From the NCBI GenBank assembly GCA_000004985.1, contig GG738856.1: a stretch of DNA of 64,000 bases. The stretch is one strand, 5' to 3'. Each line of letters begins with the position of its first letter. The first letter of the stretch is position 1. The translations under genes were made by a program, and so were the position numbers. The notes under the pieces were generated by a model, which was given only the letters and a program-made list of their open reading frames with translations, made no database searches and was not told where the DNA came from. This document shows positions 1-63,970 of the stretch, one piece after another. This stretch comes from Naegleria gruberi (taxonomy: Eukaryota).

Positions 1-2065
1 CTTCCAGTATGCAATCCAATCCTACATCTAAACAAGGGTTTTCCTTCTAAATCCCATTTTTCTCTCAATCTTCTCATAGCGGTTTGGCATTTGATAGCTG
101 CTCGACAAGCTGGAAGAGCTGTATTCATCATTGCTGAAGGTGCTCCCCACAAGGCCATTACCGAATCACCTAAAAGAATATAAGAGTTAATTATTTAACA
201 CACTACTTACCAATATACTTATCGAGAGTTCCTTGCTCTTTAACAATTTCTTCAGTCATGACATGAAAATATTCACTGACATGGGTGATTAACAATTGAG
301 GAGGAAGCTCTTCACTCCATGTTGTAAAGTTCTCCACATCTGAAAATAGAATGGTAATATTATCCAACATTGCTCCACCAAGTTTCATTTCAATTCCCTT
401 TTCGACCATTTCAACAATCAAGTGTTTTGGAACAAATCTCATAAATGATCTCAATGTTGTTTTCATCTTATCAAAAGCTTCACCAAGTTCAATAATTTCT
501 CTAATTCTAGTTTTTAAAGGTAAACTTCTATTTACCTCCAATCGAGAAATAGCCTTACTTTCATTGGAAAAGTAACCAAGAGGTCGAGAAACCTTCACTG
601 AAATATAGTAAGCTATAACAATACTAACAATCACGAAAATAACACTAACCACCACATTGAGGCCAGACATTAATAATAAATTTCCAATAAAGTCTGTCTC
701 TGGTGCTGAGATGAATACCAACCATTCAACATTGAACCCCTCTGAGGATGAAACAACATCAAAGCTCATTAAATTAACAGCTCCATAATGAAAACGATTC
801 AAGGACTTTCTACCAGCATAGACCTTCTCTGTGGTAGATGGAATAATGTTAACGATAATATGTCGTAGCATTTCATTTGGAATTTCTTCAGCTTCAGGAA
901 TACTTAATGAACCATCACTATTCTGAATGACCAATGTTTTTAAATCCTTGTAGGCAATAACTCTCTTCCTGTATGTTCCATCTCCATTCTTATTCAGCTC
1001 AATAATACCCAAAATTCCATTCGTAGAAAATTTAAATGATTGTACAAATTCCACGAGTTGCTTGATAACAACAGTAGTGCTGACAACACCAATATATTTT
1101 GAACTATTAAAGGGAGAGTAAATGGATTCCTGATATGAAACATAAACCTGTTCTTCCACATAATCAGCAACTTGAAGTGCTATTGGTGTTATTGCCTTTT
1201 CATAAATGTGAGATAATTTGTAATATTCGTCATTTCTTGGATCGTAAACTGATGGATAATCCTCTTTTTTTGCAATTGCAATAAATGTTCCATTTCTAGT
1301 CAATTGATACGTATCTAGATAGGTAGTATTCGAAGAGGGATTAAACACAAAGTAGAGCTTTTGTCGTTTTTCATAATACTGTCGATACCAAGGTAAATTA
1401 GTATCACTGGAATAATCTGAAGAGTCCACTGAATTGACATATAGATAATCTCCATTAGGAGGTGTAAAATCCATCAAAAAGACCAACAATTTATGTTGGG
1501 AGTGTGTCCTTGCCAATATTTTGAAAATTGTTTGATAATTTTCAGAACTGTAAAACAAATCATCACTTGTTTCCTTCATATAGTAATCATCAAATACTTG
1601 CTGACGTTGAGCAGCTGCCAATATAATACACGTATCCAAATAATTCGAAACATAGGTATTTGCCTTCTCTACTGCACTTGTAACAACGAGATTTTCAATC
1701 TGATTGGCAGTAATTAATGAGAAGGTAATTGAAATAATGGTCAATAAGAGAATTGGCGACAAAATCAATGTACACATAGCCCCCAGCAGTGAGAATTTAA
1801 AACTAATATAGAGAGTTTGCTGTTGGAGTCCATAAACACTGGTGGAAGCTTCCGTATCAGCATCAAACATTTCATTGCCGACTATAACTTGTCCAAATGA
1901 TGAAGGAGGCAATGAAACATTATTACTATTATTGGTGTTATTGGTGTTATTAATGTTATAAAGTGAATATTGCGAAAATCTTCCTTCTTCTGGAGCAGAA
2001 TTTTGTTGTTGGAAATGTTTCCTAGCTAGCTCGGGTTGTATTCTATTGCCTTTGCCAGTCATCAA
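1..2065 (-). CDS. ACG-like sensor adenylyl cyclase (class III cyclase, partial at window edge). Minus-strand exons 211..2062 and 1..169; intron 170..210, continues beyond position 1.
   Basis: Topology is TM, ~380-aa extracellular sensor domain, TM, HAMP-like linker, then cyclase. Class III motifs ILFSDVENFT and (across a 41-nt GTAAGT..TTTTAG intron) YIG|DSVMALWGAPS ... RCRIGLHTG. The real ATG is at 2062; the ORF-track start 2065 is a TTG. Resembles Dictyostelium ACG architecture (established knowledge). Confidence 0.7.
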
Positions 2066-7844: not shown

Positions 7845-8271
7845 TTTTAATAATTGAATGTAAATTTGATGATGAATGTGGATGATTGGTTCTTCAATAA
7901 AAAAATGTCTCACAACAGAACAGGCAAATTTGATGATGGAGAATAATTTTATTAATGTATTATTATATAATTAATATGAAAGTTTAAAATATATTAGCTG
8001 TTTTTCGGAATAATGTTTGGTGGCCAAGTAATGGCTTGATATGGTGCAAATTGTGCAACTGTAGTGGTTAAGCTTGCTCACTTACAAATCCTGTAAATTC
8101 TGATGGCGCCAAATCATCGTCCATGATTTCTTGTTTGAAAACACAAAAGAATTTGCCTTGATCAAAACGAGTTCATGCTTGCGAGGAATTCTTCAGCGAG
8201 CAAAAATCATATGCAACACAAGAATTCATCAACAAAAAAAATCAAACAACAACAATTGTCCTATTTTCACA

Positions 8272-11200
8272 ATGTTGAATAATAATAGAACATTTAAACC
8301 ACCAATAATTGATAATAATGTAACTCTTGGTTTGGGTCCTGACAGAATGGGTGTTTTATTCACGGATATGTTGACAGCCATTAGAATTCCTGCCAATCAT
8401 TGGTTATTAGCTTTGATCAGTGGTGGTAGTGGTGCTGATGATCAACAAGTGAGAGTAAAGCTTGTGCATGAAACGTTCCGATATGTAAATTCAGAACCAA
8501 CTCTTGAAATGAGCCAGGAAATTGACTTGCAGTTCCAAGTCATGTCACGATTGATTTGTATTCCACCAAATCAACAACAATTGATAGAATATTATAGAAA
8601 TACATTGCCATCAGCAGATTATCTTCTTTTTGAGAAGTATCACAAGTGGAATATAAGAATTGAATCGGTGGTTTACCAAAGATATGTGACTCTTGATGTT
8701 GTGTTAATTTGCCAAAATGAAAAAGAACTTCCAAAGAATTCATTGGAGTATTTAATGAAGACAGCTCCATACACGTTTAGAGATTTCCGTCTTCTTTATG
8801 AAAATTGTGAATTGTACAGTAATTTATTCAAGGTTGACTGCGAAATGTTTCAACAATTCTTTGGACGAAACTATCCTCTTGTTTGTACAGTCAAAGATGT
8901 AGATTCTAATCCAAATATTATTGGAAATAATAACATGTCCATTCAAAATTCATTCTCAAGATTTGCCAGAATATTAATGGATTTGAATTTGGGCAAATGT
9001 ATGATGATTGTGAAATTCGAAACTAAAGATGACAACATCAAAAGAAAGTGGTGCGAGAATGGGATAAGCTACGAAGGCCATTGCTACAAATTCTTTAGCA
9101 CTTCCAACTCTGGAATGAAAGGCAGCTCTGCAGTTTTTATCAACTCAACCTTACTCAACTTGGAAACTGTCAAACTTCTCGTTGGAAGCTCCTTCGACAA
9201 GGCATTACAGACAGGTGGTGTCAGAAAGGTAGCAAGCAGAATTGGTCTCAGTATTGGAACAAGCATTCAAAGTTTAGCAACTTTTGAATTTGATCAAATT
9301 TTCTGTCTTCCACAGAACATCGAAGATGAGTTTCCAATAACTGATGGTTCTGGATTAGCAAGATCTGATTTCTTTGAGGAGATTTTAGAAAAGACCTATG
9401 CCATTCCTTATTTCGAAATGGAAAAATTGGCAAAACATCCAGAAATGAAACTCTCCAGAAGGTTAGAAACTGATTACAAAAACGTGAGTGCCATTCAAGT
9501 GAGAATGCTTGGAGCCAAAGGAGTTTTACAAAAGATTCCAGATTCATTGTGGAAAGTATTGCAAGTCAAGTGGAAATTCCCAGATTCAACAAAGGTGATT
9601 TTGAGAAATTCAATGATCAAGTTTGAAACTGCTTATTACAAAAAGATTGATGTATTGAGTTATTCATCTGCTACGGGAGGGTCGATTTCAAGAGGAGTCA
9701 TGTCTTGCTTATTGGAGAGGACAGATCACAGAGAGGAAATGGAAGAAATTTTCATGAATGATCTCGACGATTATTTGAAAGAAATGGAGGACAATAGAAA
9801 TGATCCAATCTATGTCTGCAACTATCTTTTAACTGGAACAGGTAATACAAAGGAAGGATTGGCCAAACAATTGATTATGGCAGATCATCCACTCAATAAT
9901 TATTTCATTGATTCAGTAATTAGAGAAAATATCAAAACAAGACATTTGGGATTAGTCAATGATAATCTTTCTTTCAAAATCAACAGTCATTATTGTGTCA
10001 GTGCGTTGGGAGGTGTGGATGAAAGTGGGGAACTCAAAGAAGGTGAAATTCACATTAATTGTGATGCCTTTACAAATAGCCCATACTATCTGGAACTCGA
10101 TTACGTTTTAGTTTATAGAAATCCTTTGGGGTATGAGGGTGATATTCAAAAACTCAAAATTAAGAAAAATCCTCAATCAGAATTCCTCAAATCAAGACGA
10201 AACTCAATCACCTTTGCCATGTCCAAGGGCACTAGAAATCCTATTGGATTTATGCAAGGCGGTGATTTTGATGGTGACAGATACAATATCATTTTCCATC
10301 CAAAGATTGTGAAATATTTCAAGCAAGACGAAAGTTTGAATTTGGATTATAATAATAATGATATTTACGAACAATTTAAAAAGAATGAATCTATTTCCAG
10401 TCTGGAGACGATACCTGTTATGCAACCCAACACCAACCCAACCATTCAAGACATTATTGAAGAACACATTAACATGTTCACTGAAAATTCTCCAATAGGT
10501 ACTTTAAGTGGTTACACATCTAACCTTAGAGAAACAACTGATATTCCAAAGAAAAAGTTGGCTTCCAAGCTATTCGCAGATTGTATCGATTCTATTAAGG
10601 GAAGTTCATTCCCTTATGACCTGATTAACATTGTAAAATCGAAAATTCCTGAATGGGAAGAGTATTTGAATGAAAGAGTTAAGAAGAGTGAATTTTGGAA
10701 AGATGAAAATCTGTCAAATCCACAACCTAATCATTTAGTGTGTAGAATGTTTGATATGGTAGTACAATCGTTGAAGAAAATCACTGAAGATCCAATTAAT
10801 ACTCAACTCGATCCTGATTTTGAAACACCTAATCCAAAATATTTGAAATTCCATACTCAATGGAAACAAGAATTCGAAAATCTTTTCAAAGAATGGTGCA
10901 ATTATTGGACAAAGCAATTATCAGCCAATCCAGAAACAGAAAAGGACAAATCTGAAACTAAATCACACAAGAGAATTTTACTGAACAAAATTAAGGAAAT
11001 TCTTCCACTGCAAGAAGAAAAAAGTGAATCAATTGACTGGCGTGCAAAATTCAATGAAGGAACAGATGGCAATGATATGAGATGTGAAAAGGCAGCATTC
11101 TTTATGAGGTATAATCATGTGCAAAATCAGAAAGGTTTAATCAAGAGATTGCAAAGTCCTTTCGTCTATACTTGTTGCATGCTTTATTTGAATATTTACA

Positions 11201-11316
11201 AGCAATTCAAACAATTTGAAAAATTTGGAAAAATTCCACAGATTGTTTCATCCAATTACAAAGTTTCTCTCAAGAAACAACTTTCGAATATCACAAGAAC
11301 AACACCTGTAGAATAA
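8272..11316 (+). CDS. Eukaryotic-type RNA-dependent RNA polymerase (cellular RdRP/RDR domain protein)
   Basis: RDR-family signature blocks: YEGHCYKFFSTSNSGMKGSSAVFI, ARIGLSIGTSIQS, VSAIQVRMLGAKGVL, VYRNPLGYEGDIQ and the catalytic GGDFDGDRYNIIF (DbDGD). First ATG is at 8272; the frame is open from 8131. No helicase domain in this ORF. Confidence 0.75.
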   Translation: MLNNNRTFKPPIIDNNVTLGLGPDRMGVLFTDMLTAIRIPANHWLLALISGGSGADDQQVRVKLVHETFRYVNSEPTLEMSQEIDLQFQVMSRLICIPPNQQQLIEYYRNTLPSADYLLFEKYHKWNIRIESVVYQRYVTLDVVLICQNEKELPKNSLEYLMKTAPYTFRDFRLLYENCELYSNLFKVDCEMFQQFFGRNYPLVCTVKDVDSNPNIIGNNNMSIQNSFSRFARILMDLNLGKCMMIVKFETKDDNIKRKWCENGISYEGHCYKFFSTSNSGMKGSSAVFINSTLLNLETVKLLVGSSFDKALQTGGVRKVASRIGLSIGTSIQSLATFEFDQIFCLPQNIEDEFPITDGSGLARSDFFEEILEKTYAIPYFEMEKLAKHPEMKLSRRLETDYKNVSAIQVRMLGAKGVLQKIPDSLWKVLQVKWKFPDSTKVILRNSMIKFETAYYKKIDVLSYSSATGGSISRGVMSCLLERTDHREEMEEIFMNDLDDYLKEMEDNRNDPIYVCNYLLTGTGNTKEGLAKQLIMADHPLNNYFIDSVIRENIKTRHLGLVNDNLSFKINSHYCVSALGGVDESGELKEGEIHINCDAFTNSPYYLELDYVLVYRNPLGYEGDIQKLKIKKNPQSEFLKSRRNSITFAMSKGTRNPIGFMQGGDFDGDRYNIIFHPKIVKYFKQDESLNLDYNNNDIYEQFKKNESISSLETIPVMQPNTNPTIQDIIEEHINMFTENSPIGTLSGYTSNLRETTDIPKKKLASKLFADCIDSIKGSSFPYDLINIVKSKIPEWEEYLNERVKKSEFWKDENLSNPQPNHLVCRMFDMVVQSLKKITEDPINTQLDPDFETPNPKYLKFHTQWKQEFENLFKEWCNYWTKQLSANPETEKDKSETKSHKRILLNKIKEILPLQEEKSESIDWRAKFNEGTDGNDMRCEKAAFFMRYNHVQNQKGLIKRLQSPFVYTCCMLYLNIYKQFKQFEKFGKIPQIVSSNYKVSLKKQLSNITRTTPVE

Positions 11317-45634: not shown

Positions 45635-46770
45635 TTAATCATCATTCAAGTATTTTCTCACATCATCGTTGGATTCGTAGGCCCAGCCTAAATTACTTGT
45701 AGCCGATTCAAGAATTGATGTGTTATCACCTTCACAAGCTCCAAACACATATCCACTTGCTCTGTCTACTGCTTTCAATACTCTCAGAACGCTCTCCTTA
45801 TCTTGAATATTCAGAGTGCAAAATGAAACGAGTGAATAATCCTCAATCACATCAGCCATTAGCTTGTTCAACCTCTTGAACCTATTTCTGTAATTTTTAA
45901 CTTTGTTTTGTGGAGTATCCTCATCATCTTGCATAATATCCTCTTCTTCCTCTTCTTCAGCGTTATTGACATTGCACTTTTCACCATGTTCATGATCTGC
46001 TTCACAAACAGGTTTCTTTCCCATATTTCTTACCAAATAGGATAAATCCTGAACCTGTGTATAAAAGTCAATATCAAAAGCCAGTTTTCCATATTGTTGA
46101 ATCAAGTCAACCTTGGACAAAACATTTACATGAGGAAGTTCCAATCTGATCATTATCGACAAGGAAACCATCAAAATTGAAATATATTTCGATGGATCTG
46201 TACAATGATGAGCATCCACTAAATTAACAGCACACAATCTGAAATGCCAGCCATTTGTTAACTTGTCACAAATATCCCTCACAACATTGTAATGTGTATA
46301 TAATTCAATTTGTCCAGGCATATCAAAAATTACATAATACGAATCATCTTCAATATATGGTTTTAACTCTGTTTTTAACCAATCATCCATATGTTCCTTT
46401 AAATATTCTATACAATAAACAAGTCCACCATTTGGTCCTAATTTTAATTCCTCCATCACAGGTTCTATCGAAACTAAATCTTGAATATCCACAGCACATT
46501 CATATTTATATCCTTCATTGGCAGGATCCAAATTTACTACAATTACTTTTCTTCCAATTCCTTTCAAAAATTGTTGCATTCCATCACAATATGTACTCTA
46601 TTAATATTAATAATTAAATCATCATTATTAATCATATGATGAGAATTACAAATATTAACGTCAATACAAAAATTATTATCATTTCATCATGGTCAATATA
46701 TTAGAATTAATCGGAATCTTCTTACCTTACCACTTCCAGGTGGTCCACAAACGATTTGACCAAAAGGCAT
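45635..46770 (-). CDS. gpn2: GPN-loop GTPase 2 (GPN2); exons 46726..46770 and 45635..46597
   Basis: MPFGQIVCGPPGSGK|STYCDGMQQFLKGIGRKVIVVNLDPANEG.YECAVD, GPNGGLVYCIEYL, FDMPGQIELYTH, HLVD/HHCTDPSKYIS, YGKLAFDIDFYT. 128-nt GTAAGG..TAATAG intron. Confidence 0.85.
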
Positions 46771-46892: not shown

Positions 46893-48104
46893 ATGGTTTC
46901 ATTCAATCACAAAGAGTTTCAAGAACCTGTAAAGATTATTTTGAGTGATTTCCTTGATGATTCAACAAGGAATCTTAATAGAATGCTCCGATCGAAATTA
47001 ATGATCAATTCGCAACAACGTTTGGTTGATTTTCTGTTTCGTCTCTTATCCACCGAATATCCACCGCCACCCTCTTCATCCACACCATTGTTGTTGAGTG
47101 ATAATGGTAATAGTGAATCGGAGAAGGCTTCCTTGCCATGTTGTAAATTGAGTGAGGAAGAAATTTTGCAAATTTGTTCGATGGTGAGTTGTTTTTGTAT
47201 TATGATGATCATTATATTAATTCAATATATTTAACAATATATTAATTAATTGATTATAATTAAATATATTTAATAGTCGAGTAGATATTATGAAAATGTT
47301 CCGAATGTTATTAGATTAAATTCACCTTTATCAATTTGTGGAACAATCAAGGGATCTTTTTCGAGTTTGGACAAGATTTTGGATGAATGTAAAATTGTGG
47401 ATCGAGAAAAACATACTGTAAATTATCAATGTAATGGATTATTGGTTTTGGGAGGATTTTCATTGACTCCATTCATATCAGGTCCTTACAAATTGCCAAG
47501 ATATGCCTACTTTACTGTTGAGGTCGTTTTGGTATTGTACTGTTTGAAATTGTTAATGCCTGAAAAGGTGCATCTATTGAGGGGAAGTGTGGAAAATAGG
47601 TGGGTTAACTTTGGAAATTTTCATGATGTTTGTTTGGAAAGATTTGGAAAAGAGTCTGGAAAGAGGGTTTACAATGCAATTTCAGATATATTCCTGGACT
47701 TACCATTGGTAGCAATTGTGGATAATCAAGTCATGTGTGTAAATTCTGGGCTACCTTTCGGAGGACTGAAAGAAATAGAGGATGAAGAGAGAAGAATTGG
47801 ATTGGAGAGTGCAGAATATACCAGTGCCGTGTCAGCATGTACAATGCATGAGGCTGAAGAGGTTCATGGATGGAAACTGAAACCACTGGCCAGTGAGTTA
47901 TTATTCGGCCCAGATATAACTAAAAAGTTTTTGGAGGAGGAAAATTTGAAATTGTTAATTTCTGGAAAATTGTTGTGTGATTCTACCTCTACAGCTCATG
48001 ATGGATTAGTGCTCATGGTGAGTAGCTTCCCAAGAGATGGACTACTGGGTGGTGTTATCCATCTAGAACGTAATTGCAAGTATAGAGTATTTTCATTCAA
48101 ATGA
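46893..48104 (+). CDS. PPP-family (calcineurin-like) Ser/Thr phosphatase homologue with degenerate catalytic motifs (pseudophosphatase); exons 46893..47183 and about 47352..48104
   Basis: PPP fold signposts with catalytic residues replaced. GDxHG is not recognisable (LVLGGFSL). GNHE reads LLRGSVE. HGG reads NSGLPFGG. RAHQ is absent. The intron acceptor is approximate. Confidence 0.5.
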
Positions 48105-48975: not shown

Positions 48976-49461
48976 ATGTACAAGAATTTGATCAATATTA
49001 CTTCATTTGCTATTAGAAAGTCATCGACAACAAGTGGTTGTCATAAGGCTGGAAGCTTTGTCATGCCAACAGTTCATAGCTATCATCACAGTTTTAGAAA
49101 TAGAGATTTGGAAAGAGTTGCCTCCTGTGTTGGCCATTCTCAAGATGTTACCGTCGATCAAAGCAACCTTTCGTATAGTATTCAACAATTAATTGACAAG
49201 TTGGAAAAGCTTGCCAAACTGGATCCACAATTGAAGAAGATTTTGCAAGATTATTCATCTGATGTTTCTATGACAAGAACTGCTAGAATGAACAAGTTGA
49301 CTGCCCAACGTTTATTCGAATGCAACTTAAAGGTTCAACATTACCTCAGTGCACACGTTGGCACTCAAGAATTGAGATTCTTGTCAATGGTAAACTCTGA
49401 TCTCGCTGATGAATGCTCTGTTATCAACAAGCGTTTGCAAAAACACATCTTTTCCACATAA
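48976..49461 (+). CDS. Hypothetical protein (161 aa)
   Basis: Uninterrupted ORF with a real ATG, flanked by long AT-rich intergenic DNA. No recognisable motif. Confidence 0.3.
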   Translation: MYKNLINITSFAIRKSSTTSGCHKAGSFVMPTVHSYHHSFRNRDLERVASCVGHSQDVTVDQSNLSYSIQQLIDKLEKLAKLDPQLKKILQDYSSDVSMTRTARMNKLTAQRLFECNLKVQHYLSAHVGTQELRFLSMVNSDLADECSVINKRLQKHIFST

Positions 49462-50030: not shown

Positions 50031-52537
50031 ATGACTAAAGTTCAACCTGTTCATGATGACAATAAGAAGGTAAGTTTCAAAACAACTTTACTAACATTCA
50101 AATCAAGCAAAATAAAAATGAAGATTTGCTTCTCTTAGATGGTGAAAAGGAAAAGCTTTGCGAAAGAAAGAAAATCATTCTCAAATCTTGCATTTCCATG
50201 AGATTAATCATTACCTTATTAATCATTCTCCTCTTGACGGCATGCTCCATCCTTACCTGGTTAGCTTCCTTCATTGGATCTATAACTGCCTTAGAAGAAT
50301 TATCCCAGAATCTTGTTTCTAGAGTTGGAGAGAAGGCCATTACTTACATTGATAGTCAACTGGATCCTGTTGTGAAACTTTCATCAAGTTTTGCAGCTGA
50401 CATTACCAACGGATCAATTTCTCTTCAACCCTCCATTAGCAACTTGTATCAAAAAGCAACAATCTACAAAGCATCAAGTGTTGGTGTTTTCTATTCACAA
50501 AGTTTGTACTCTGTTGTTTGGGCAGGTGTTTATCCGAATGAAGTATTGACCTATTCAGAGGCAATTCCTGGTCTAGTTTATTGGAAATTGGATGCTAGCA
50601 ATGGAAATGTGGTCTCAGTGTTCAAAAATACGTCTACTATTCCTTTTTCAATCACTTCTCAAGCGTTCTGGGCTGGAAGTTTTGCATTATTCAACTCAAC
50701 TGGTGCTGAAACGATTCTTGGAGCTCCGTATGTGGTAATCAATTCAGGAGTAGTGATTTATTGTTCTACAAAGATTTACGATCCAGTATTGATGGTTCAA
50801 GGAACAAAAAAAGTTATTGGAATTGCAAAAGTCAACTTGACCTTAAAGACCGTTCAGGATTTTTTACAGAAATTGTCCGTGATTGGAAATGGATACATAA
50901 TATTATCAGAAACGAATAACAATGTGATCGGAGCTTCTATTAACTCAACTGCAACTGATGGAGTGTCTAGAATTTCCTTATTTGACCTTACTGATAAAAA
51001 CGCTGGTCAACTGATGACAGATCTCAAAAATCAATATGGAGATATGAGCAAAGTTCCATCCTATAGCCAAATAACTAGTAAGGGAGTAGAATATTTCGTT
51101 TCCAAAATGGACTACCAATATCTCAATGTTCGTTGGAATCTGTATATGGTAATTTACAAATCTGATATCCAAAGAGTTACCAATATTAATACTGGTATCT
51201 CAGTTGCTGTTGCAGTTGTAGTTATTGGAGTGGGTATCATTTGTGGTGTCTTTATTGGACATATTGTAACGAAACCTCTCAGATTCCTTGAAGATCAATT
51301 TTCAAAAATCAAAACTTTTGATTTGAATTCTTGTAATTTCATTTCAAGCCAATTCAAAGAAGTTGATAGAATTTATGAGCATTTGTATGATATGGTCACT
51401 TGGCTTAATGAATTCAAGTCCTTCCTCCCAGAGAGTGTCTTTAATCAACTCAAACATATGGAACTAGTTGAAGATTCGAAACAGCACTCAGCAACTATTC
51501 GACAAAGCGTCCATGATTCACAAGCCATGATGTCCAGTGCTCAACTATCTTCCAAGCATTCTGGAAAATCAAGTAATCTCCAATCTGGCTTGGGAGGAAT
51601 TACTTCTGGAGGTTTATTTAAGGTTGGATTATCCACGAATAAGGTAACAATAGTCTGTGTTAAACTATTTGGGTTTTCTAATGAGAATTCCATGCATGAT
51701 TTATCGTTGCTATTCTCAAAGATTGCTTCCTGCCTTTCAAACTTGTCCAAAACTATGCAAGTCACTGATATGAAGATTAATTCTGTCGATGAATTTCAAT
51801 TATGTTTTACAAATGACAAGAAGAAGAAATCAGAATTTTTGGCCTTAGATGCAAGTTTGAAAATTGCAAAGGCATTGAATAATATTACTGGAAAGTCGGG
51901 TCAGAAAATTGATTATTCAATTGGTGTTTGTTCTGATTTGGCAAATATTGGAAATTTGGGAACTAGTTCACTAAGATATTTTTCAATTGTTGGTTCTGTG
52001 GTTGACAATGCCAAGATAATTGCATTATTGGGACATTCTAGTGCTAGCAGAGTTCTTGTGGATGGAAATACTCTGACTAATGTCAAGGAACAATTCGTAT
52101 ACAAACCTGTGGATCGATTGGAAATGGAACTACACTCTAAAAAGACAATTTGTTCGATTTTTGAAGTGATTAGAGAGAATGTTGTTAATCAAGATGAATG
52201 GCTATACGAATTGGATCAATCGAATAGTAATAATAAGTATTTAGAGTTACAATCTATTTTCCATCAACTATTCGAAAGTTCATCATCCATTTCATTCGAA
52301 ACTTTGAATGATTTCCGATCTAAACTTTCCCAATTCATGAATGAACATCCACAAGAAAGTTCAAACATGACCAAGACTTTAGAATTCTTAGAAATGGTTT
52401 TACAATGCTCTTCAGAATCTCAATCCCATGAAATGCTAAATAATTACAAAACTGTTTTGGAGAAACATTTGACCACTCTTTCTAAATACACCTATTCTGA
52501 TTCCGATGTTATTGTAACCAAAATTAAAATTGATTAA
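50031..52537 (+). CDS. ACG-like sensor/transmembrane protein with degenerate (probably inactive) class III cyclase-homology domain; exons 50031..50069 and 50108..52537
   Basis: Same TM-sensor-TM-HAMP-like layout as the gene at 1..2065 (ITALEELSQNLVSRVGEKAITYI vs ITANQIENLVVTSAVEKANTYV; LKTVQDFLQKLSVIGNGYIILSETNNNVIG vs IKQLVEFVQSFKFSTNGILGIIELNKNGDG; TKPLRFL vs SRPLGYF). The cyclase-like region (VTIVCVKLFGFSNE ... IDYSIGVCSDLANIGNLGTSSLRYFSIVGSVVDNAKIIA) lacks the metal-binding Asp and the GD motif. A 5' mini-exon MTKVQPVHDDNKK plus a 38-nt GTAAGT..CAAG intron is proposed; alternatively the start is internal (MRLIITLL..). Confidence 0.55.
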
Positions 52538-52597: not shown

Positions 52598-55500
52598 TTA
52601 ATTGTCCACAATCCTTTCATTCCATTCCTCAATCTTTTGTAAAATTTCATTAATGTTTGGTCTTTCCTTTGGGTCATGACTCCATGATTGTCTAATGAGT
52701 AAAGTCATTTCAAAAATGATATCCGAGTGGTAGTTCAACACTTCGTTCCTAGGTAGGAATGTTTCACACCAAGTTTGACATTCCTCTGCAGTAGAAAATG
52801 GAATGACAGGTCTCAATCCTTCTTCACAAACACTCTTATGGAATTGATATGAGCTATTAAATACATTTGGTTTGGATAATTTCAATTTTTGAAGAGCTCT
52901 TGCGTCCATACTTTGATATGGTTCTGTTATTTCGAATATTAATTGCCACATTACAATAGCCAAACTGTAAATATCAATTGATCGAGCATCATTTCTACCA
53001 ATATCTCCCGAAAAGAGTTCAGGACTGTTTCACCACCATATTATTGATATTGCACAATTATAAATCCATTCAGAAAAAAACTAACCTCATATAATTACTC
53101 GTTCCAATATGATTGGTGAGGGCTGAAATGCTGTGAGAAGACAAGACTCTTCCCAATCCAAAATCACACAACTTGGCAGTTCCATTCTTGTCTAAAAGAA
53201 TATTTGCTGGTTTCAAATCTCTGAATAATTGTGGACTAATTAAAAAATACTGAGATAGATCAAACATACCTGTGGACAATAAAGTTCGGCTCCAAACAAT
53301 GTAGATAATTGATTCCACTGGCTACATTGAGTAGAATGGACAGTTTCAGTTGAAGTGAACACTTCAATTGGTGTAATTCCAAGCTTCTAATCAAGGATTC
53401 CAAACTCTTATCCATATATTCCATTGCAATAAACCTCTTTGTGGGTGTTGATGAAATACCATAAAAATTGATAATGTTGGGATGTCTCAATTTGGACAAT
53501 AGAATGGCTTCAAATTTGAAATCATCTTCTGAAATATTAATATTATTCAAGTCAAATACTTTGACAGCAATAATAATTCCATTATATTTGGTTGAAAAGA
53601 CACTTCCCATTCCTCCTTCTCCAAGTCTCTGAGTTAAAAATGGTAAATTAGAACTAAGAATATGAATAACGTACCTTAATTGGTTTGTCCATGTGTAACA
53701 GCTCAACAGGAATAATAAAATTCTGCTCCTCCTCACTGGTTGGCTTGGATCCAGAGCCATTACTTGTATATTCCATTTCAGATTGAGATAAGAGTCTTTG
53801 ATCTAAAGTGAGGTCAGTATCATTTATCCTCTTTTGCTTTCTGTACTTCCTTGTGATGAAAATCAAGACAACTGAAATGATTGCAATGACCAATGCAAAA
53901 AATCCTATCAGTCCAAGAACAATTCCCAACATTAAATTGCTGTATTCACATCTCTCTCCACCAAAGCCTTCCTTACATTCGCACATATCATGCTTTACAC
54001 AATTTCCATTACGATTGCAAGCTTCAGATCCAGATATTCCAAAACAAATTGCAATTTGACATGAAACACCTGTATATCCAATACTACAATTACAATTATT
54101 TGGAGAAATACAAGTTCCATTAGAAGAACAAACAGACTGGCTTTCACTGGAAATCCCATTACAAATAGGATATTGACATTGAGAGCCAGAAAATCCAGCA
54201 TGGCACACACACTTGTTATATTCAACACACGTTCCATTTCCGCCATTGCACGAAGTGCTTTCATTTGAAGCAATGCCAAAGCATGTGGCTATACATTCTG
54301 TCATTGTCATACTAAGGACATACCCATCTTTGCAGTAGGGTTTCATCTTGTATATGACATTATATTTGGAATCTGAAATGTAGATTTCACCTTTTCCATC
54401 ATTGGAAAATGTAATACCTTCAGGAATTCCCAATGGAGCACTCACTGCTGACAATTCCATATTAGAATAGTATAGACCTCCATAGGATGTGTCTGTTCCA
54501 TTTCCAGCAATTGTTGTAATTATTCCATCTTTGATTCTTCTAATTCTACCATTGTTAGAATCTGAGAAAATGATATCCTCGTATGGAGGAATGAGCTTTA
54601 AAAATGTTGGACTGTTAAGTTGGGCGTTTTTAGCAGGTAGTCCATCTCCACTAAATCCCTTAATACCTGTTCCAGCCAATGTTGAAATTGTTCCATTTTT
54701 GTAAACTATTCTAATTCGGTGATTGTTTCGGTCAGAAAATATGATGTCCCCTGTGATTTTTGAATAAGCAATACCAGATGGGTAGGCCAAAGATGTTTGT
54801 AATGAATTAATATCATCTGCATAGAATCCATATCCACCATTTCCAGCGATTGTGTGCACAATTCCATTTCTAATCATCCTAATCATGTTATTCGTTACAT
54901 CAGTGAAATAAATGTCATTATTTGGTGCGATGGTCAATCCAAGACAATTTCCAATAGCATTTTCAGAAGGACCTAAATCTCCAACTCCTCCAGCAAGTAT
55001 TTCTATTGTCTTTTTCATAGTATAGACTCGAATTTTATCATTTCTAGTATCGGCCACTAGTACCATCTTCTCCTCTAAGGAATTTGCTACTGCATGAACA
55101 GACATAGGCCCATTAATTTTGGCAGTAAGTGCTGAATCGCCATCTCCCTCAAATCCAGGAAATCCTGTCTGGCTAACAACTGTTCTAATGTTGAAATCAG
55201 TTGTTGAAATGGCCCTAATCTTATTGTTAAATGTATCAGCTTCAAGAAATGTTAATTATTGAATGGATAGAAAAACAGAACTTACCAACATAAATGTCTG
55301 AATACCCATAACTGACACTGTGAGGATAAAAGAGCTGACTTCTGATAGCTGGACCTTCATCACCACTACTTCCATCAATTCCTGTTCCTGCAAGTGTTTT
55401 TACTGTTACATCTGTAATCACTCTAATTCTATGATTATTTGTATCCTTTTAGTAACTTGTTAATGTTTCCAATATGTGATAAAACTTACAGCAACAATTA

Positions 55501-62188: not shown

Positions 62189-63970
62189 TTAAAGATCTGC
62201 ATCTTCAATCAGAGAATTTTCAATAAGAATAAACAATGCCTCCAAATCATCTTGTTTTTGTAAGAGTTCAATACTTGCAGTGTCTAATCTGAAAGATTTA
62301 TCTCTCAATCGAATAAATCTGATGGCCTTAACAAGAATGTCAAAGATGATGTGTTTGTGGGCCTTGTATGTCTTATTCCTCAATCGATCAATCATTGAAT
62401 TAATATCACAGAATAGTGAGAGAATAAAGACTGCATGCATGATGAATTTTCTCGTATCAACGTCATCGTTGGAAGAAATTGTGAGAATATAATCGAAAAG
62501 AGTGGAAACTACATTGTCGTTCACTCGTTCAGATTTGAGCATACCAATGGCCTTAATGGCATGTAAACGAAGAATGACCATTGATCTTCCTTCCTCGATG
62601 ATTCTCAATAAGAGAGATTGAACTACCTTTTCATCGTTATAATTTGCAACGTATCCTAAAGATTCGGCACAGAGAGCTCTGATTACTTCTGGAACTTCAC
62701 GATTTTCCAAACGTTCCATCAAGTGTTGGACAATGTTTTGTGCACCCCTTTCTGATTTTCTACCCAACAAACGAACTGAAACTTCCACCACACCAATGTC
62801 AGTATGTTTCAATAATTGAATAAAAGTATCAATGACTGCTTGATTGTTTGTATGACTAATCTTTTCCAAAGTTGTTGTACATGAGGTAATAACTTCCTCT
62901 GATTCTGAGAGAAGTCGCTTACAAAGAATTTCAATGATTTTCTGATCACCTTTCTTTGCAATTTGAGCAAGAGCAATGGCACTCTGTTCTCTGTTTACAT
63001 CCTTGGATGATCTGTTTGAAAATTGTTCCAAGAGTGCACAAATGACAACTTCATCCTCCTTTGGAGCTGAATATCCAAGTGCACAAATAATTCTGTCAGG
63101 TTGAGATGAGGTCTTTAACATTTGAAGGAGTTTGCTAACAAGGGCAGGATCCTTTCTTTGACTGATAGATCCCAAGGCCATTGCAACTCGGTATGCAATT
63201 GACTTTCTTTCATTTTCCAACATGTTCAATAATCTGTACTGAATAACAGGCAACAAATCAGGAATAACAACTGCAGAGAATGCTTCACTGACAATCATGT
63301 CATCAAAACTGCTTTCTTTCAAACAATCAATGAGTGTATCAATAATTTCCATGTCACCCTTTTCGGCTAATTTACCCAAGCAAATACAAGCTTCATAACA
63401 CTTGTTCGAAACCTTGGTCAATTCAGAAATAACAAGCGGATCACCATATTTTGCAACAGATCCCAATCCAATACAAGCAACCTTTCTAAAGTTGTAATCG
63501 TTCAACATTGGAATCAACATGTTAATAATTGTCGAATCTTCTTTCTCTGCAACCTTTGTAATTGCTTCAATGGCTGCTTCAATAAGAGGAACGTTGGCTT
63601 TGTTGCTTGTACCCTTTGGAGTATTGTTAATAATATTAGTTAGGGCTGAAATAACCGCCTTGTCACCTCTATCAGCCAATTTACCAATACAAATGCAAAG
63701 TCTCTTTCTAATATTGATATCCTTGGTTTCTTCCAATTTCTTAATGAGAATCGAGACGAATTTTTGTTCTCCCTTTGGCATAATAATTGAAAGTGCATGA
63801 ATAGCATATTCGTTGGTTTCTACGTGTTGTAAAAGCCCATCACCAATCTTTTCGAATAATTGATTGTACATGAACGATCTAGTAATTGCCTTATTTCTCA
63901 AATCTTCTGATTTGTGAATGAGTCCTTGCACAATCATTGAGACATTCTCATCAGTCTTTAATTGCTTCAT
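62189..63970 (-). CDS. HEAT-repeat (PBS-lyase/E-Z type) protein
   Basis: About 12 repeats of the ~30-aa pattern ..V(R)..A..ALG.IAkkGD..VI..L...L.D...; ATG at 63970. Confidence 0.5.
   Translation of the reverse strand: MKQLKTDENVSMIVQGLIHKSEDLRNKAITRSFMYNQLFEKIGDGLLQHVETNEYAIHALSIIMPKGEQKFVSILIKKLEETKDINIRKRLCICIGKLADRGDKAVISALTNIINNTPKGTSNKANVPLIEAAIEAITKVAEKEDSTIINMLIPMLNDYNFRKVACIGLGSVAKYGDPLVISELTKVSNKCYEACICLGKLAEKGDMEIIDTLIDCLKESSFDDMIVSEAFSAVVIPDLLPVIQYRLLNMLENERKSIAYRVAMALGSISQRKDPALVSKLLQMLKTSSQPDRIICALGYSAPKEDEVVICALLEQFSNRSSKDVNREQSAIALAQIAKKGDQKIIEILCKRLLSESEEVITSCTTTLEKISHTNNQAVIDTFIQLLKHTDIGVVEVSVRLLGRKSERGAQNIVQHLMERLENREVPEVIRALCAESLGYVANYNDEKVVQSLLLRIIEEGRSMVILRLHAIKAIGMLKSERVNDNVVSTLFDYILTISSNDDVDTRKFIMHAVFILSLFCDINSMIDRLRNKTYKAHKHIIFDILVKAIRFIRLRDKSFRLDTASIELLQKQDDLEALFILIENSLIEDADL

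What the first reader, a model, noticed from the sequence alone, without database searches (positions are those of the whole stretch)
46893..48104. PPP-family phosphatase homologue lacking the catalytic motifs (candidate pseudophosphatase)
The protein follows the PP1/PP2A-like fold landmarks, but the GDxHG, GNHE (LLRGSVE) and HGG (NSGLPFGG) metal- and phosphate-binding His/Asp/Asn residues are substituted. RAHQ is absent. This predicts no phosphatase activity. Inactive PPP homologues can act as scaffolds or regulators.
Basis: partly seen in the sequence, partly recalled or inferred. Interest (0 to 1): 0.5.

Follow-up and report, generated by a model that had tools for sequence, protein, structure and literature searches.

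The report
Dead PP2A-like phosphatase gene in Naegleria
This is a real two-exon Naegleria gruberi gene for a protein that keeps the shape of a PP2A/PP1-type protein phosphatase but has lost every residue needed for catalysis; a wild relative carries the same dead gene, so it is a conserved but uncharacterised pseudophosphatase, a kind that is already known.

Summary
Window 46893-48104 (+) holds a two-exon gene (46893-47183 and 47277-48104, with a 93-nt GT-AG phase-0 intron) encoding 372 aa. The window is Naegleria gruberi NEG-M, where NCBI annotates only an 80-aa partial protein at this locus. The protein is a significant PPP homologue: Pfam Metallophos scores above its cut-off, human PP2Ac matches at E 1e-21, and an AlphaFold model (pLDDT 87.6) matches PP2Ac and PP1 with TM-scores of 0.8-0.9. 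All six metal ligands, the general-acid His and a phosphate-binding Arg are replaced, while the structural Gly/Arg/Glu residues of the motifs are kept. One full-length orthologue (34% identity) was rebuilt from metagenome contigs of an uncultured Naegleria/Willaertia-like heterolobosean. It shares the intron position, an insertion of about 10 residues in the GDxVDRG loop and a conserved N-terminal helix, and it is dead at the same eight positions, mostly with different residues. Catalysis was therefore lost before the two species split, and the gene has been kept under selection since. It lacks the PP2A C-terminal tail and most alpha4-contact residues, so it is probably a non-catalytic binding module with its own partners, not a PP2A decoy. 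That function is inferred. Verdict: a new member of a known, little-studied kind, of moderate interest.

The parts
46893..47183 (+). Exon 1 (codons 1-97). It holds the N-terminal extension, a long helix, a Pro/Ser-rich linker, and the first helix of the PPP domain up to ...EEILQICSM.
   Evidence: This ATG is the first start codon after an in-frame stop. The exon is 291 nt, so the intron is phase 0. The codon-usage score in frame 0 is +0.26 against -0.7 off-frame.
47184..47276 (+). 93-nt GT...AG intron, phase 0.
   Evidence: The boundaries are GTGAGT...TTAATAG. The codon-usage score is -0.56, which is non-coding-like. The environmental orthologue has a 38-nt GT-AG intron at the homologous codon: ICDM|ASRYYESVPNV against ICSM|SSRYYENVPNV.
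47277..48104 (+). Exon 2 (codons 98-372 plus the stop codon). It holds the rest of the PPP catalytic-fold domain.
   Evidence: The protein ends at the position of PP2Ac residue ~290, so there is no TPDYFL tail.
46962..47054 (+). N-terminal helix (residues 24-54), conserved in the orthologue. The conserved pattern V[KR][IL]IL.D.L..R.L..MLR begins a little upstream, at residue 13.
   Evidence: The AF2 model has a helix at 23-52 with pLDDT 73-94. The alignment with the L002 orthologue shows the conservation.
47058..47132 (+). Pro/Ser-rich low-complexity linker (residues 56-80). The orthologue lacks it.
   Evidence: pLDDT is about 61 here, and the alignment A3 shows a gap in the orthologue.
47340..47354 (+). 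Remnant of GDxHG: GTIKG (D57 to T, H59 to K).
47451..47510 (+). Remnant of GDxVDRG: GGFS plus an insertion of about 10 residues (GGFSLTPFISGPYKLPRYAY). D85 is G, and D88/R89 are lost.
   Evidence: pLDDT is 59 over residues 161-170. The orthologue has the equivalent insertion, NFSAPYYEHEHDATMFE.
47583..47594 (+). Remnant of GNHE: GSVE (N117 to S, H118 to V). The structural R199, G200 and E203 are kept.
47742..47750 (+). Remnant of HGG: NSG (H167 to N).
47883..47897 (+). PLASE in place of PRGAG. The phosphate-binding R214 is L.
47961..47972 (+). SGKL in place of RAHQ. Metal ligand H241 is lost.
47514..47753 (+). Extent of the only public gene model at this locus: an 80-aa 'predicted protein, partial' (EFC46927.1 / XP_002679671.1), equal to residues 177-256.

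Best explanation
Shown: this is a genuine, selectively maintained protein-coding gene of Naegleria gruberi. It encodes a stand-alone PPP-fold domain that derives from the PP2A/PP1 superfamily and is closest in sequence to type-2A catalytic subunits. The domain cannot bind the two catalytic metals or the substrate phosphate. The structural residues of each motif are retained (G119/G123, G156, R199-G200-x-x-E203, G255), while each chemically active side chain is replaced.

Shown: an orthologue in an uncultured Naegleria/Willaertia-like heterolobosean shares three derived features: the phase-0 intron site, the insertion in the GDxVDRG loop, and the N-terminal helix. It is dead at the same eight positions, with the same residue at only one of them.

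Inferred from this: catalysis was lost before the two lineages split, no alternative active-site chemistry has been conserved, and selection acts on the fold and on other surfaces.

Inferred mechanism: the protein is a non-catalytic protein-binding or scaffold module with lineage-specific partners. A family-specific cluster (W206, L237-D238, R269-R270-x-x-L273) sits at the PP2Ac 'helix switch / loop switch' packing site next to the former active site. It probably stabilises the metal-free fold. Together with the loop insertion it may form the new binding surface.

It is unlikely to join PP2A-type holoenzymes or to sequester alpha4/Tap42.
For: - Gene reality: the spliced ORF is intact with canonical splice sites. 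Codon usage is +0.21 bits/codon in frame, within the range of 18 neighbouring genes (0.14-0.67), and -0.6 off-frame.
- Homology.
- Fold: the AF2 model has pLDDT 87.6 and pTM 0.87. Foldseek against PDB gives PP2Ac at E 5e-25 with target TM 0.78-0.89, and PP1 and PP5 score similarly.
- Dead site: the eight catalytic columns read TKGSVNLK in the query, CANSYSSD in the orthologue and DHDNHHRH in active PPPs.
- Orthologue: P0008/P0156 on contigs L001/L002 is 34% identical over its full length. It is the NJ sister of the query.
- Selection on the protein: 48 of 87 identical, degenerate amino-acid positions use different codons.
- Host of the orthologue: the neighbouring kinase on L001 best matches N. 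fowleri (52%), N. gruberi (47%) and Willaertia magna (44%).
- Family-specific conserved residues. Their mapping onto the PP2Ac helix/loop-switch residues: using PMC3644067.
- Precedent for essential non-catalytic PPP-type proteins: PfPPP8 (PMC10317984).
Against: - There is no expression, localisation or interaction evidence. The scaffold role is inferred only from loss of catalysis combined with conservation.
- Only two family members are known, so the conservation statistics are thin.
- The AF2 model was built from an alignment dominated by active PPPs, so it is not independent proof of the fold.
- The exhaustive library search found no annotated orthologue from N. fowleri or Willaertia. Either the family is patchy or the gene is routinely missed, as it largely is in N. 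gruberi.
- The orthologue lacks the last beta-strands and the SAPNY-loop equivalent, so the C-terminal part may not be essential.
Confidence: 0.7

Rival explanations
1. PP2A-partner decoy. The dead subunit mimics metal-free, latent PP2Ac and sequesters the PP2A scaffold (PR65/A), alpha4/Tap42, TIPRL or PTPA, and so tunes PP2A-family biogenesis.
For: The closest sequence and fold matches are PP2Ac. Metal-free PP2Ac is the form that alpha4 prefers (PMC3644067). R185/L186, N44, D131 and D148 equivalents are retained in the query.
Against: - Only 3 of 11 alpha4-contacting PP2Ac residues are kept in the query and about 2 of 11 in the orthologue. The equivalent of Y130, part of the Y130D/D131R pair whose mutation abolishes binding, is H in one and W in the other.
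- The protein stops about 20 residues before the TPDYFL tail used for methylation and B-subunit assembly.
- The segment after the GDxHG remnant (GSFSSLDKILDECK...) has diverged from PP2Ac and carries insertions. From memory, not tested here, this segment is where PP2Ac faces the A subunit.
- The margin of PP2Ac over other PPP subfamilies is only 12-20 bits.
Confidence: 0.12
2. Non-functional relic. This would be a unitary pseudogene or a neutrally drifting paralogue that still happens to have an open frame.
For: - All catalytic residues are gone.
- The public annotation gives only an 80-aa partial model.
- No annotated orthologue was seen in N. fowleri or Willaertia.
- At 34% identity it evolves faster than the kinase encoded beside the orthologue on L001, which is 47% identical to its N. 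gruberi homologue.
Against: - With about 7% stop-codon frequency at this base composition, 276 open codons have a chance of about 1e-9 (own calculation from the composition).
- The gene is only about 25% identical to active PPPs, so the divergence is old, yet the ORF, the splice sites and gene-like codon usage persist.
- A second species keeps an intact ORF, the same intron site and the same loop insertion, with 55% of codons changed at identical residues.
- Fold-determining residues are retained selectively.
Confidence: 0.08
3. Still an enzyme. It would be a hydrolase or phosphatase using non-canonical chemistry. Yeast Ppn2, for example, is active despite an atypical GDxVDRG motif.
For: Motif-based calls of 'pseudo' can be wrong (Ppn2 case, PMC13216928). 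The query has Lys at the H59 and H241 positions, which could attract anions.
Against: All six metal ligands, the general acid and R214 are lost, not just one motif. The replacements differ between the orthologues at 7 of 8 positions (T/C, K/A, G/N, V/Y, N/S, L/S, K/D), so no alternative catalytic set is conserved.
Confidence: 0.05
4. Gene-model or assembly artefact. The two ORFs would be unrelated, or the exon junction would be wrong.
For: The exact spliced protein is not in the public protein collection.
Against: The homology to PP2Ac is continuous across the junction. The orthologue has the same junction, seen on two independent metagenome contigs from ENA and JGI samples. The surrounding ORFs match the N. 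gruberi reference exactly.
Confidence: 0.02

Closest known systems
PP2A catalytic subunit (PPP2CA) and the type-2A clade (PP2A/PP4/PP6)
   Same: These are the best sequence matches (E 1e-21, about 25% identity) and among the best fold matches (target TM 0.78-0.89). The order of secondary-structure elements and motif positions is the same, and the structural Gly/Arg/Glu residues of the motifs are kept.
   Different: All metal ligands, the general acid and R214 are replaced. The GDxVDRG loop carries an insertion of about 10 residues. There is an N-terminal extension of about 40 residues plus a low-complexity linker. There is no C-terminal TPDYFL tail. The alpha4 interface is mostly not conserved.
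PfPPP8 family (Plasmodium basal-complex PPP-type pseudophosphatase; PMC10317984)
   Same: Both are PPP-fold proteins predicted or shown to lack activity, conserved within a protist lineage and presumed to act through binding.
   Different: PfPPP8 has substitutions essentially in one motif (GDxxDRG to GNLINRG), with the others intact. It belongs to an apicomplexan/chromerid family and is a component of the basal complex. The Naegleria protein has lost every catalytic motif, consists of a bare domain, and has a type-2A subunit as its nearest active relative. No orthology to PfPPP8 was tested.
Kinetoplastid-specific PPPs and PP2B-like predicted pseudophosphatases (TriTryp phosphatome; PMC2175518)
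   Same: Both are long-branch PPP paralogues in Discoba with substitutions at catalytic residues, predicted to be inactive and uncharacterised.
   Different: These are different lineage-specific families. None of the top library hits that shared the query's signature came from a named kinetoplastid.
Degenerate PP2A-like paralogues of ciliates and metamonads (e.g. Tetrahymena XP_001025214, Euplotes CAI2376964, Trichomonas XP_001330801, Streblomastix KAA6384640)
   Same: They are type-2A/PPP-like proteins with 2-8 of the 8 catalytic positions substituted. They are annotated simply as Ser/Thr phosphatases.
   Different: They lack the loop insertion, the RGS-x-EN-x-W signature and the N-terminal helix. 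Several still end in a DYF-type tail (P0009, P0023). In the NJ tree only P0156 pairs specifically with the query.

Membership tests
PPP superfamily (calcineurin-like metallophosphoesterase fold, PF00149) | Significant profile match to Metallophos / PPP catalytic domains | tested here: met
   PF00149 scores 25.1 bits against a gathering cut-off of 21.5. PP2Ac matches at E 1.1e-21.
PPP superfamily (calcineurin-like metallophosphoesterase fold, PF00149) | Alpha/beta sandwich fold of PPP catalytic subunits | tested here: met
   The AF2 model has pLDDT 87.6. Foldseek target TM is 0.78-0.89 to PP2Ac, PP1 and PP5. The model depends on an alignment of PPPs.
Active PPP phosphatases | GDxHG motif (metal ligands Asp and His) | tested here: not met
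   The query has GTIKG and the orthologue has GCMAG.
Active PPP phosphatases | GDxVDRG motif (bridging Asp, phosphate-binding Arg) | tested here: not met
   The query has GGFS plus an insertion and the orthologue has GNFS plus an insertion.
Active PPP phosphatases | GNHE motif (metal ligand Asn, general-acid His) | tested here: not met
   The query has GSVE and the orthologue has GSYE.
Active PPP phosphatases | HGG and RAHQ histidines (metal ligands) and the second phosphate-binding Arg | tested here: not met
   The query has NSG, SGKL and PLASE. The orthologue has SSG, CSDI and PSVS.
PP2A-type (PP2A/PP4/PP6) catalytic subunits | Closest by sequence to type-2A subunits, ahead of PP1, PP2B and PP5 | tested here: inconclusive
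   PP2Ac scores 80 bits, against 69 (BSU1), 66 (PP2B), 60 (PP1) and 58 (PP5). PP2A/PP4-like sequences lead the library hits by only a few bits. The NJ placement is dominated by long branches.
PP2A-type (PP2A/PP4/PP6) catalytic subunits | Conserved C-terminal tail ending in DYFL (carboxymethylated Leu) | tested here: not met
   The protein ends at ...CKYRVFSFK, aligned to PP2Ac residue ~290. The orthologue also lacks the tail.
PP2A-type (PP2A/PP4/PP6) catalytic subunits | alpha4/Tap42 contact residues (E33, E37, T40, N44, Y130, D131, W143, K144, D148, D151, Y152; PMC3644067) | tested here: not met
   3 of 11 are retained in the query and about 2 of 11 in the orthologue.
PP2A-type (PP2A/PP4/PP6) catalytic subunits | Binding to the PR65/A scaffold subunit | not testable with these tools
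   No complex prediction and no N. gruberi PR65 sequence were available.
Pseudophosphatase (general definition: phosphatase fold, catalytic residues lost, gene maintained) | Loss of catalytic residues together with evidence of purifying selection | tested here: met
   Eight of eight catalytic columns are substituted. The orthologue keeps an intact ORF, the shared intron and the shared insertion, and 55% of codons are changed at identical residues.
Pseudophosphatase (general definition: phosphatase fold, catalytic residues lost, gene maintained) | Experimentally shown absence of activity, and expression of the protein | not testable with these tools
   This needs a biochemical assay and transcript or proteome data.
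PfPPP8 pseudophosphatase family | Orthology to PfPPP8/TgBCC5 (large basal-complex proteins with only the GDxxDRG motif altered) | not tested
The architecture described in PMC10317984 differs: a single altered motif, against all motifs altered here.

The most novel reading that the evidence does not exclude
A heterolobosean-specific protein family has turned the metal-free PP2A fold into a new recognition module. The former catalytic cleft, rebuilt by the conserved loop insertion and the W206/L237/D238/R270 cluster, would bind a specific partner, possibly phosphorylated or acidic. That binding would regulate a Naegleria-specific process such as the amoeba-to-flagellate switch. This would make it the second functionally defined PPP-type pseudophosphatase family, and the first in which every catalytic motif has been erased.
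Probability: 0.15. Interest if true: 0.55.

Novelty: new member of a known kind. Interest (0 to 1): 0.3.

Why it matters
PPP-type pseudophosphatases are almost unstudied. The PfPPP8 paper (2023, PMC10317984) describes PfPPP8 as the first one characterised experimentally, and none has been reported in the human PPP-like family (PMC13216928). This locus adds a cleanly defined example: a complete loss of catalytic chemistry, retention of the fold's structural residues, and an orthologue showing that the dead state is old and maintained. It also corrects a truncated public gene model in the N. gruberi reference, from 80 aa partial to 372 aa. The library search further suggests that dead PP2A-like paralogues are common in protists but are annotated as ordinary phosphatases, which affects phosphatome counts. 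None of this overturns current understanding. The function is unknown, and the finding is one more lineage-specific pseudoenzyme.

Tried and rejected
- AF2 on the single sequence gave a useless model (pLDDT 32). It was replaced by the run with a 149-sequence alignment.
- The word-indexed protein search with the query alone found nothing. With the two-member profile it found only the known orthologue and one weak hit.
Look-up of the neighbouring gene P0005 was also empty.
- Both metagenome scans, one with peptide patterns and one with an exact 31-mer from L001, found nothing.
- The afdb50 fold library was unavailable, so I could not survey AlphaFold DB for Naegleria or Willaertia orthologues.
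- Synteny gave nothing. The L001/L002 flanks share nothing with the window beyond the gene itself. The regions beside the BUB1-like kinase in N. fowleri (L003) and Willaertia (L004) hold no PPP-like gene.
- The best library hit, P0007, is a tandemly duplicated ordinary PP2Ac and not an orthologue.
- I considered a link to the ciliary central-apparatus protein FAP15, a PDB hit at E 3e-17. I dropped it because it scores below PP2Ac and the papers gave no sign that it is a pseudophosphatase.
- I considered the alpha4-decoy idea and down-weighted it after mapping the interface residues.
- The PPP phylogeny paper PMC8249667 mentions neither Naegleria nor pseudophosphatases. No Naegleria phosphatome paper was found.

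Full report
**Source and gene model.** Several long ORFs of the window are exact matches to Naegleria gruberi NEG-M proteins on a 602-kb scaffold, for example EFC46922.1. This is therefore compact, intron-poor eukaryotic DNA with about 35% G+C. Unspliced, the finding's coordinates hold two ORFs, 46893-47234 and 47367-48104. A canonical intron, GTGAGT at 47184 to TTAATAG ending at 47276, 93 nt and phase 0, joins 46893-47183 to 47277-48104. The result is one 372-codon frame.

Three things support this splice:
- The homology to PP2Ac is gap-free across the junction (query 82-130 against PP2Ac 19-67).
- The intron has a non-coding codon score of -0.56, while both exons score +0.2 to +0.26 in frame and about -0.6 to -0.75 off-frame. 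That is within the range of 18 neighbouring genes (0.14-0.67).
- An orthologue has an intron at the same codon (see below).

The public annotation here is only an 80-aa 'predicted protein, partial' (EFC46927.1). It equals residues 177-256, window 47514-47753. The gene diverges from a GPN-loop GTPase gene on the minus strand, whose ATG at 46770 lies 122 bp away.

**Is it a PPP homologue?** Yes.
- Pfam Metallophos passes its gathering score (25.1 against 21.5 bits, E 2.8e-5).
- phmmer against PDB sequences puts human PP2Ac first (E 1.1e-21, 80 bits over residues 82-369). BSU1, calcineurin, PP1 and PP5 follow.
- Human PP2Ac used as a tblastn query hits only this locus in the window (E 7e-22).
- An exhaustive HMMER search of 1.84 billion cluster representatives gave 3221 hits at E<=1e-3.
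- AlphaFold2 on the single sequence failed (pLDDT 32). With a 149-sequence alignment (A1) the model has pLDDT 87.6 and pTM 0.87.
- Foldseek against the PDB returns PP2Ac (E 5e-25), PP1 and PP5, with target-normalised TM-scores of 0.78-0.89.

Because the alignment consists of PPPs, the model shows that the sequence is compatible with the fold. It is not independent proof.

**Are the catalytic residues gone?** All of them are. In human PP2Ac numbering the changes are D57T, H59K, D85G, N117S, H118V, H167N and R214L. H241 is K or G depending on the alignment, and D88/R89 fall inside an insertion. The motifs read as follows:
- GTIKG for GDxHG
- GGFS plus about 10 extra residues for GDxVDRG
- GSVE for GNHE
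- NSG for HGG
- PLASE for PRGAG
- SGKL for RAHQ

(Window coordinates of these remnants are.)

By contrast, the residues that shape the loops are retained: G119, G123, G156, R199, G200, E203, G255, P240, F236, W296, F307 and G308. The scaffold has been kept and the chemistry removed. The protein is a bare domain with four distinguishing features:
- an N-terminal extension with a long helix (residues 23-52, pLDDT 73-94);
- a Pro/Ser-rich linker (56-80);
- a low-confidence insertion at the edge of the former active site (pLDDT 59 over 161-170);
- no PP2A-type C-terminal tail, since it stops at the equivalent of PP2Ac residue ~290.

**Orthologue survey.** Apart from the 80-aa self fragment and a tandemly duplicated ordinary PP2Ac (P0007), the best library hit is P0008/P0156 (E 7.5e-22). 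It lies on an ENA metagenome contig (L001, 3944 bp) and a JGI contig (L002, 2459 bp). From L002 I rebuilt a full-length two-exon gene.

- It is 34% identical to the query over the full length.
- It has a 38-nt GT-AG phase-0 intron at the homologous codon (...EEICDM|ASRYYESVPNV against ...LQICSM|SSRYYENVPNV).
- It has an insertion of equivalent length in the GDxVDRG loop, with F-S-x-x-P-[FY] shared.
- It has a conserved N-terminal helix (V[KR][IL]IL.D.L..R.L..MLR).
- It shares family-specific residues that are rare in other PPPs: S124, S159, T177, S201, N204, W206, L237, D238, R270 and L273.
- It pairs with the query in a neighbour-joining tree of 147 PPPs.

Its eight catalytic columns read CANSYSSD against the query's TKGSVNLK. 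It is dead at the same positions, but the residue is the same at only one of them (S at N117). Of 87 identical amino acids with degenerate codons, 48 use different codons, so identity is maintained at the protein level.

The kinase gene next to it on L001 best matches N. fowleri (52%), N. gruberi (47%) and Willaertia magna (44%). This places the contig in a vahlkampfiid heterolobosean. Loss of catalysis therefore predates the split of two fairly distant heteroloboseans, and the gene has been kept since.

I found no annotated orthologue from N. fowleri or Willaertia. There was also none beside the syntenic kinase in either genome. Because the N. gruberi gene is itself largely missed by annotation, this absence is weak evidence.

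**How it probably works.** Catalysis can be excluded with high confidence. No metal ligand, general acid or second phosphate-binding Arg remains, and the two orthologues do not share replacement chemistry. A hidden alternative active site is therefore unlikely.

A specific PP2A-decoy role is not favoured:
- The tail needed for methylation and B-subunit assembly is absent.
- Of the 11 PP2Ac residues that contact alpha4 (Jiang et al. 2013, PMC3644067), only N44, D131 and D148 equivalents survive in the query, and fewer in the orthologue.

The same paper shows that metal-free PP2Ac is partly unfolded. It also shows that the 'helix switch' (residues 120-126), D148-Y152 and the 'loop switch' (183-195) pack together beside the active site. 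The family-specific conserved residues W206, L237-D238 and R269-R270-x-x-L273 fall exactly in those three segments. I infer that they form a compensatory packing cluster that stabilises a metal-free fold. With the conserved loop insertion, they may form a new surface.

My best account is therefore a non-catalytic binding or scaffold module with lineage-specific partners. The loss of activity and the selection are shown. The binding role is inferred.

**Comparison with what is known.** PPP-type pseudophosphatases are a recognised but sparsely studied kind.
- Kinetoplastid kPPPs and a PP2B-like group were predicted to be inactive in 2007 (PMC2175518).
- PfPPP8 was presented in 2023 as the first experimentally characterised PPP-type pseudophosphatase. 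It is altered in one motif only and is essential for the Plasmodium basal complex (PMC10317984).

Among the top 149 library relatives of the query, 38 carry two or more substitutions at the eight catalytic columns. The named ones come from Tetrahymena, Euplotes, Trichomonas and Streblomastix, and are annotated as ordinary phosphatases. This sample is biased by the degenerate query, but it shows that such paralogues are common in protists. The Naegleria protein is a new, small family within this kind, not a new kind.

**Verdict.** The finding is a new member of a known kind. The gene-model correction and the evidence for ancient, maintained loss of catalysis are useful, but the function is unknown and nothing here challenges current understanding. 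I score interest at 0.3.

Noticed in passing
window 47514-47753 (within 46893-48104): The public N. gruberi annotation at this locus is only an 80-aa 'predicted protein, partial' (EFC46927.1 / XP_002679671.1). The full two-exon 372-aa protein is absent from the 15-billion-protein collection.
   Followed up: yes
window 45635-46770 (minus strand): A GPN-loop GTPase gene (Pfam ATP_bind_1, E 3e-65) diverges from the pseudophosphatase gene. Its first exon (MPFGQIVCGPPGSGK, ATG at 46770) is followed by a GT intron, and only 122 bp separate the two start codons, which suggests a shared bidirectional promoter region.
   Followed up: partly
proteins P0009, P0012, P0014, P0023, P0030, P0032, P0046, P0057, P0083, P0129 and others (library hits): 38 of the 149 closest PPP relatives have 2-8 of 8 catalytic positions substituted. 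The named ones are from Tetrahymena, Euplotes, Trichomonas and Streblomastix and are annotated as ordinary Ser/Thr phosphatases. Many sit on contigs of about 1.1 kb, a size that fits ciliate nanochromosomes. Dead PP2A-like paralogues therefore seem widespread in protists.
   Followed up: partly
L001 927-3449 (minus); L003 10001-12499; L004 10001-12517: The gene next to the environmental orthologue encodes an 840-aa BUB1-like kinase with homologues in N. fowleri (52%), N. gruberi (47%) and Willaertia magna (44%). The acyl-CoA oxidase gene upstream of it is syntenic between N. fowleri and Willaertia, but the pseudophosphatase is not adjacent in either.
   Followed up: partly
protein P0007 (library): This 574-aa protein consists of two nearly identical PP2Ac copies fused head to tail. 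It is probably an assembly or gene-model artefact, and the doubled domains inflate its score (E 2e-35).
   Followed up: no
window 8131-11316 (+), 53654-55105 (-), 62189-63970 (-): Other genes in the window include an RNA-dependent RNA polymerase (Pfam RdRP, E 6e-49), an NHL-repeat/EGF-repeat protein and a HEAT-repeat protein. Two long ORFs, 50126-52537 (+) and 48976-49461 (+), have no Pfam match.
   Followed up: no
window 203-2065 (-) and 50126-52537 (+): These are two long ORFs with predicted membrane-receptor-like layouts. The first ends in a sequence resembling the start of a class III nucleotidyl-cyclase domain (…ITILFSDVENFTTWSE…). I did not check this with a profile.
   Followed up: no
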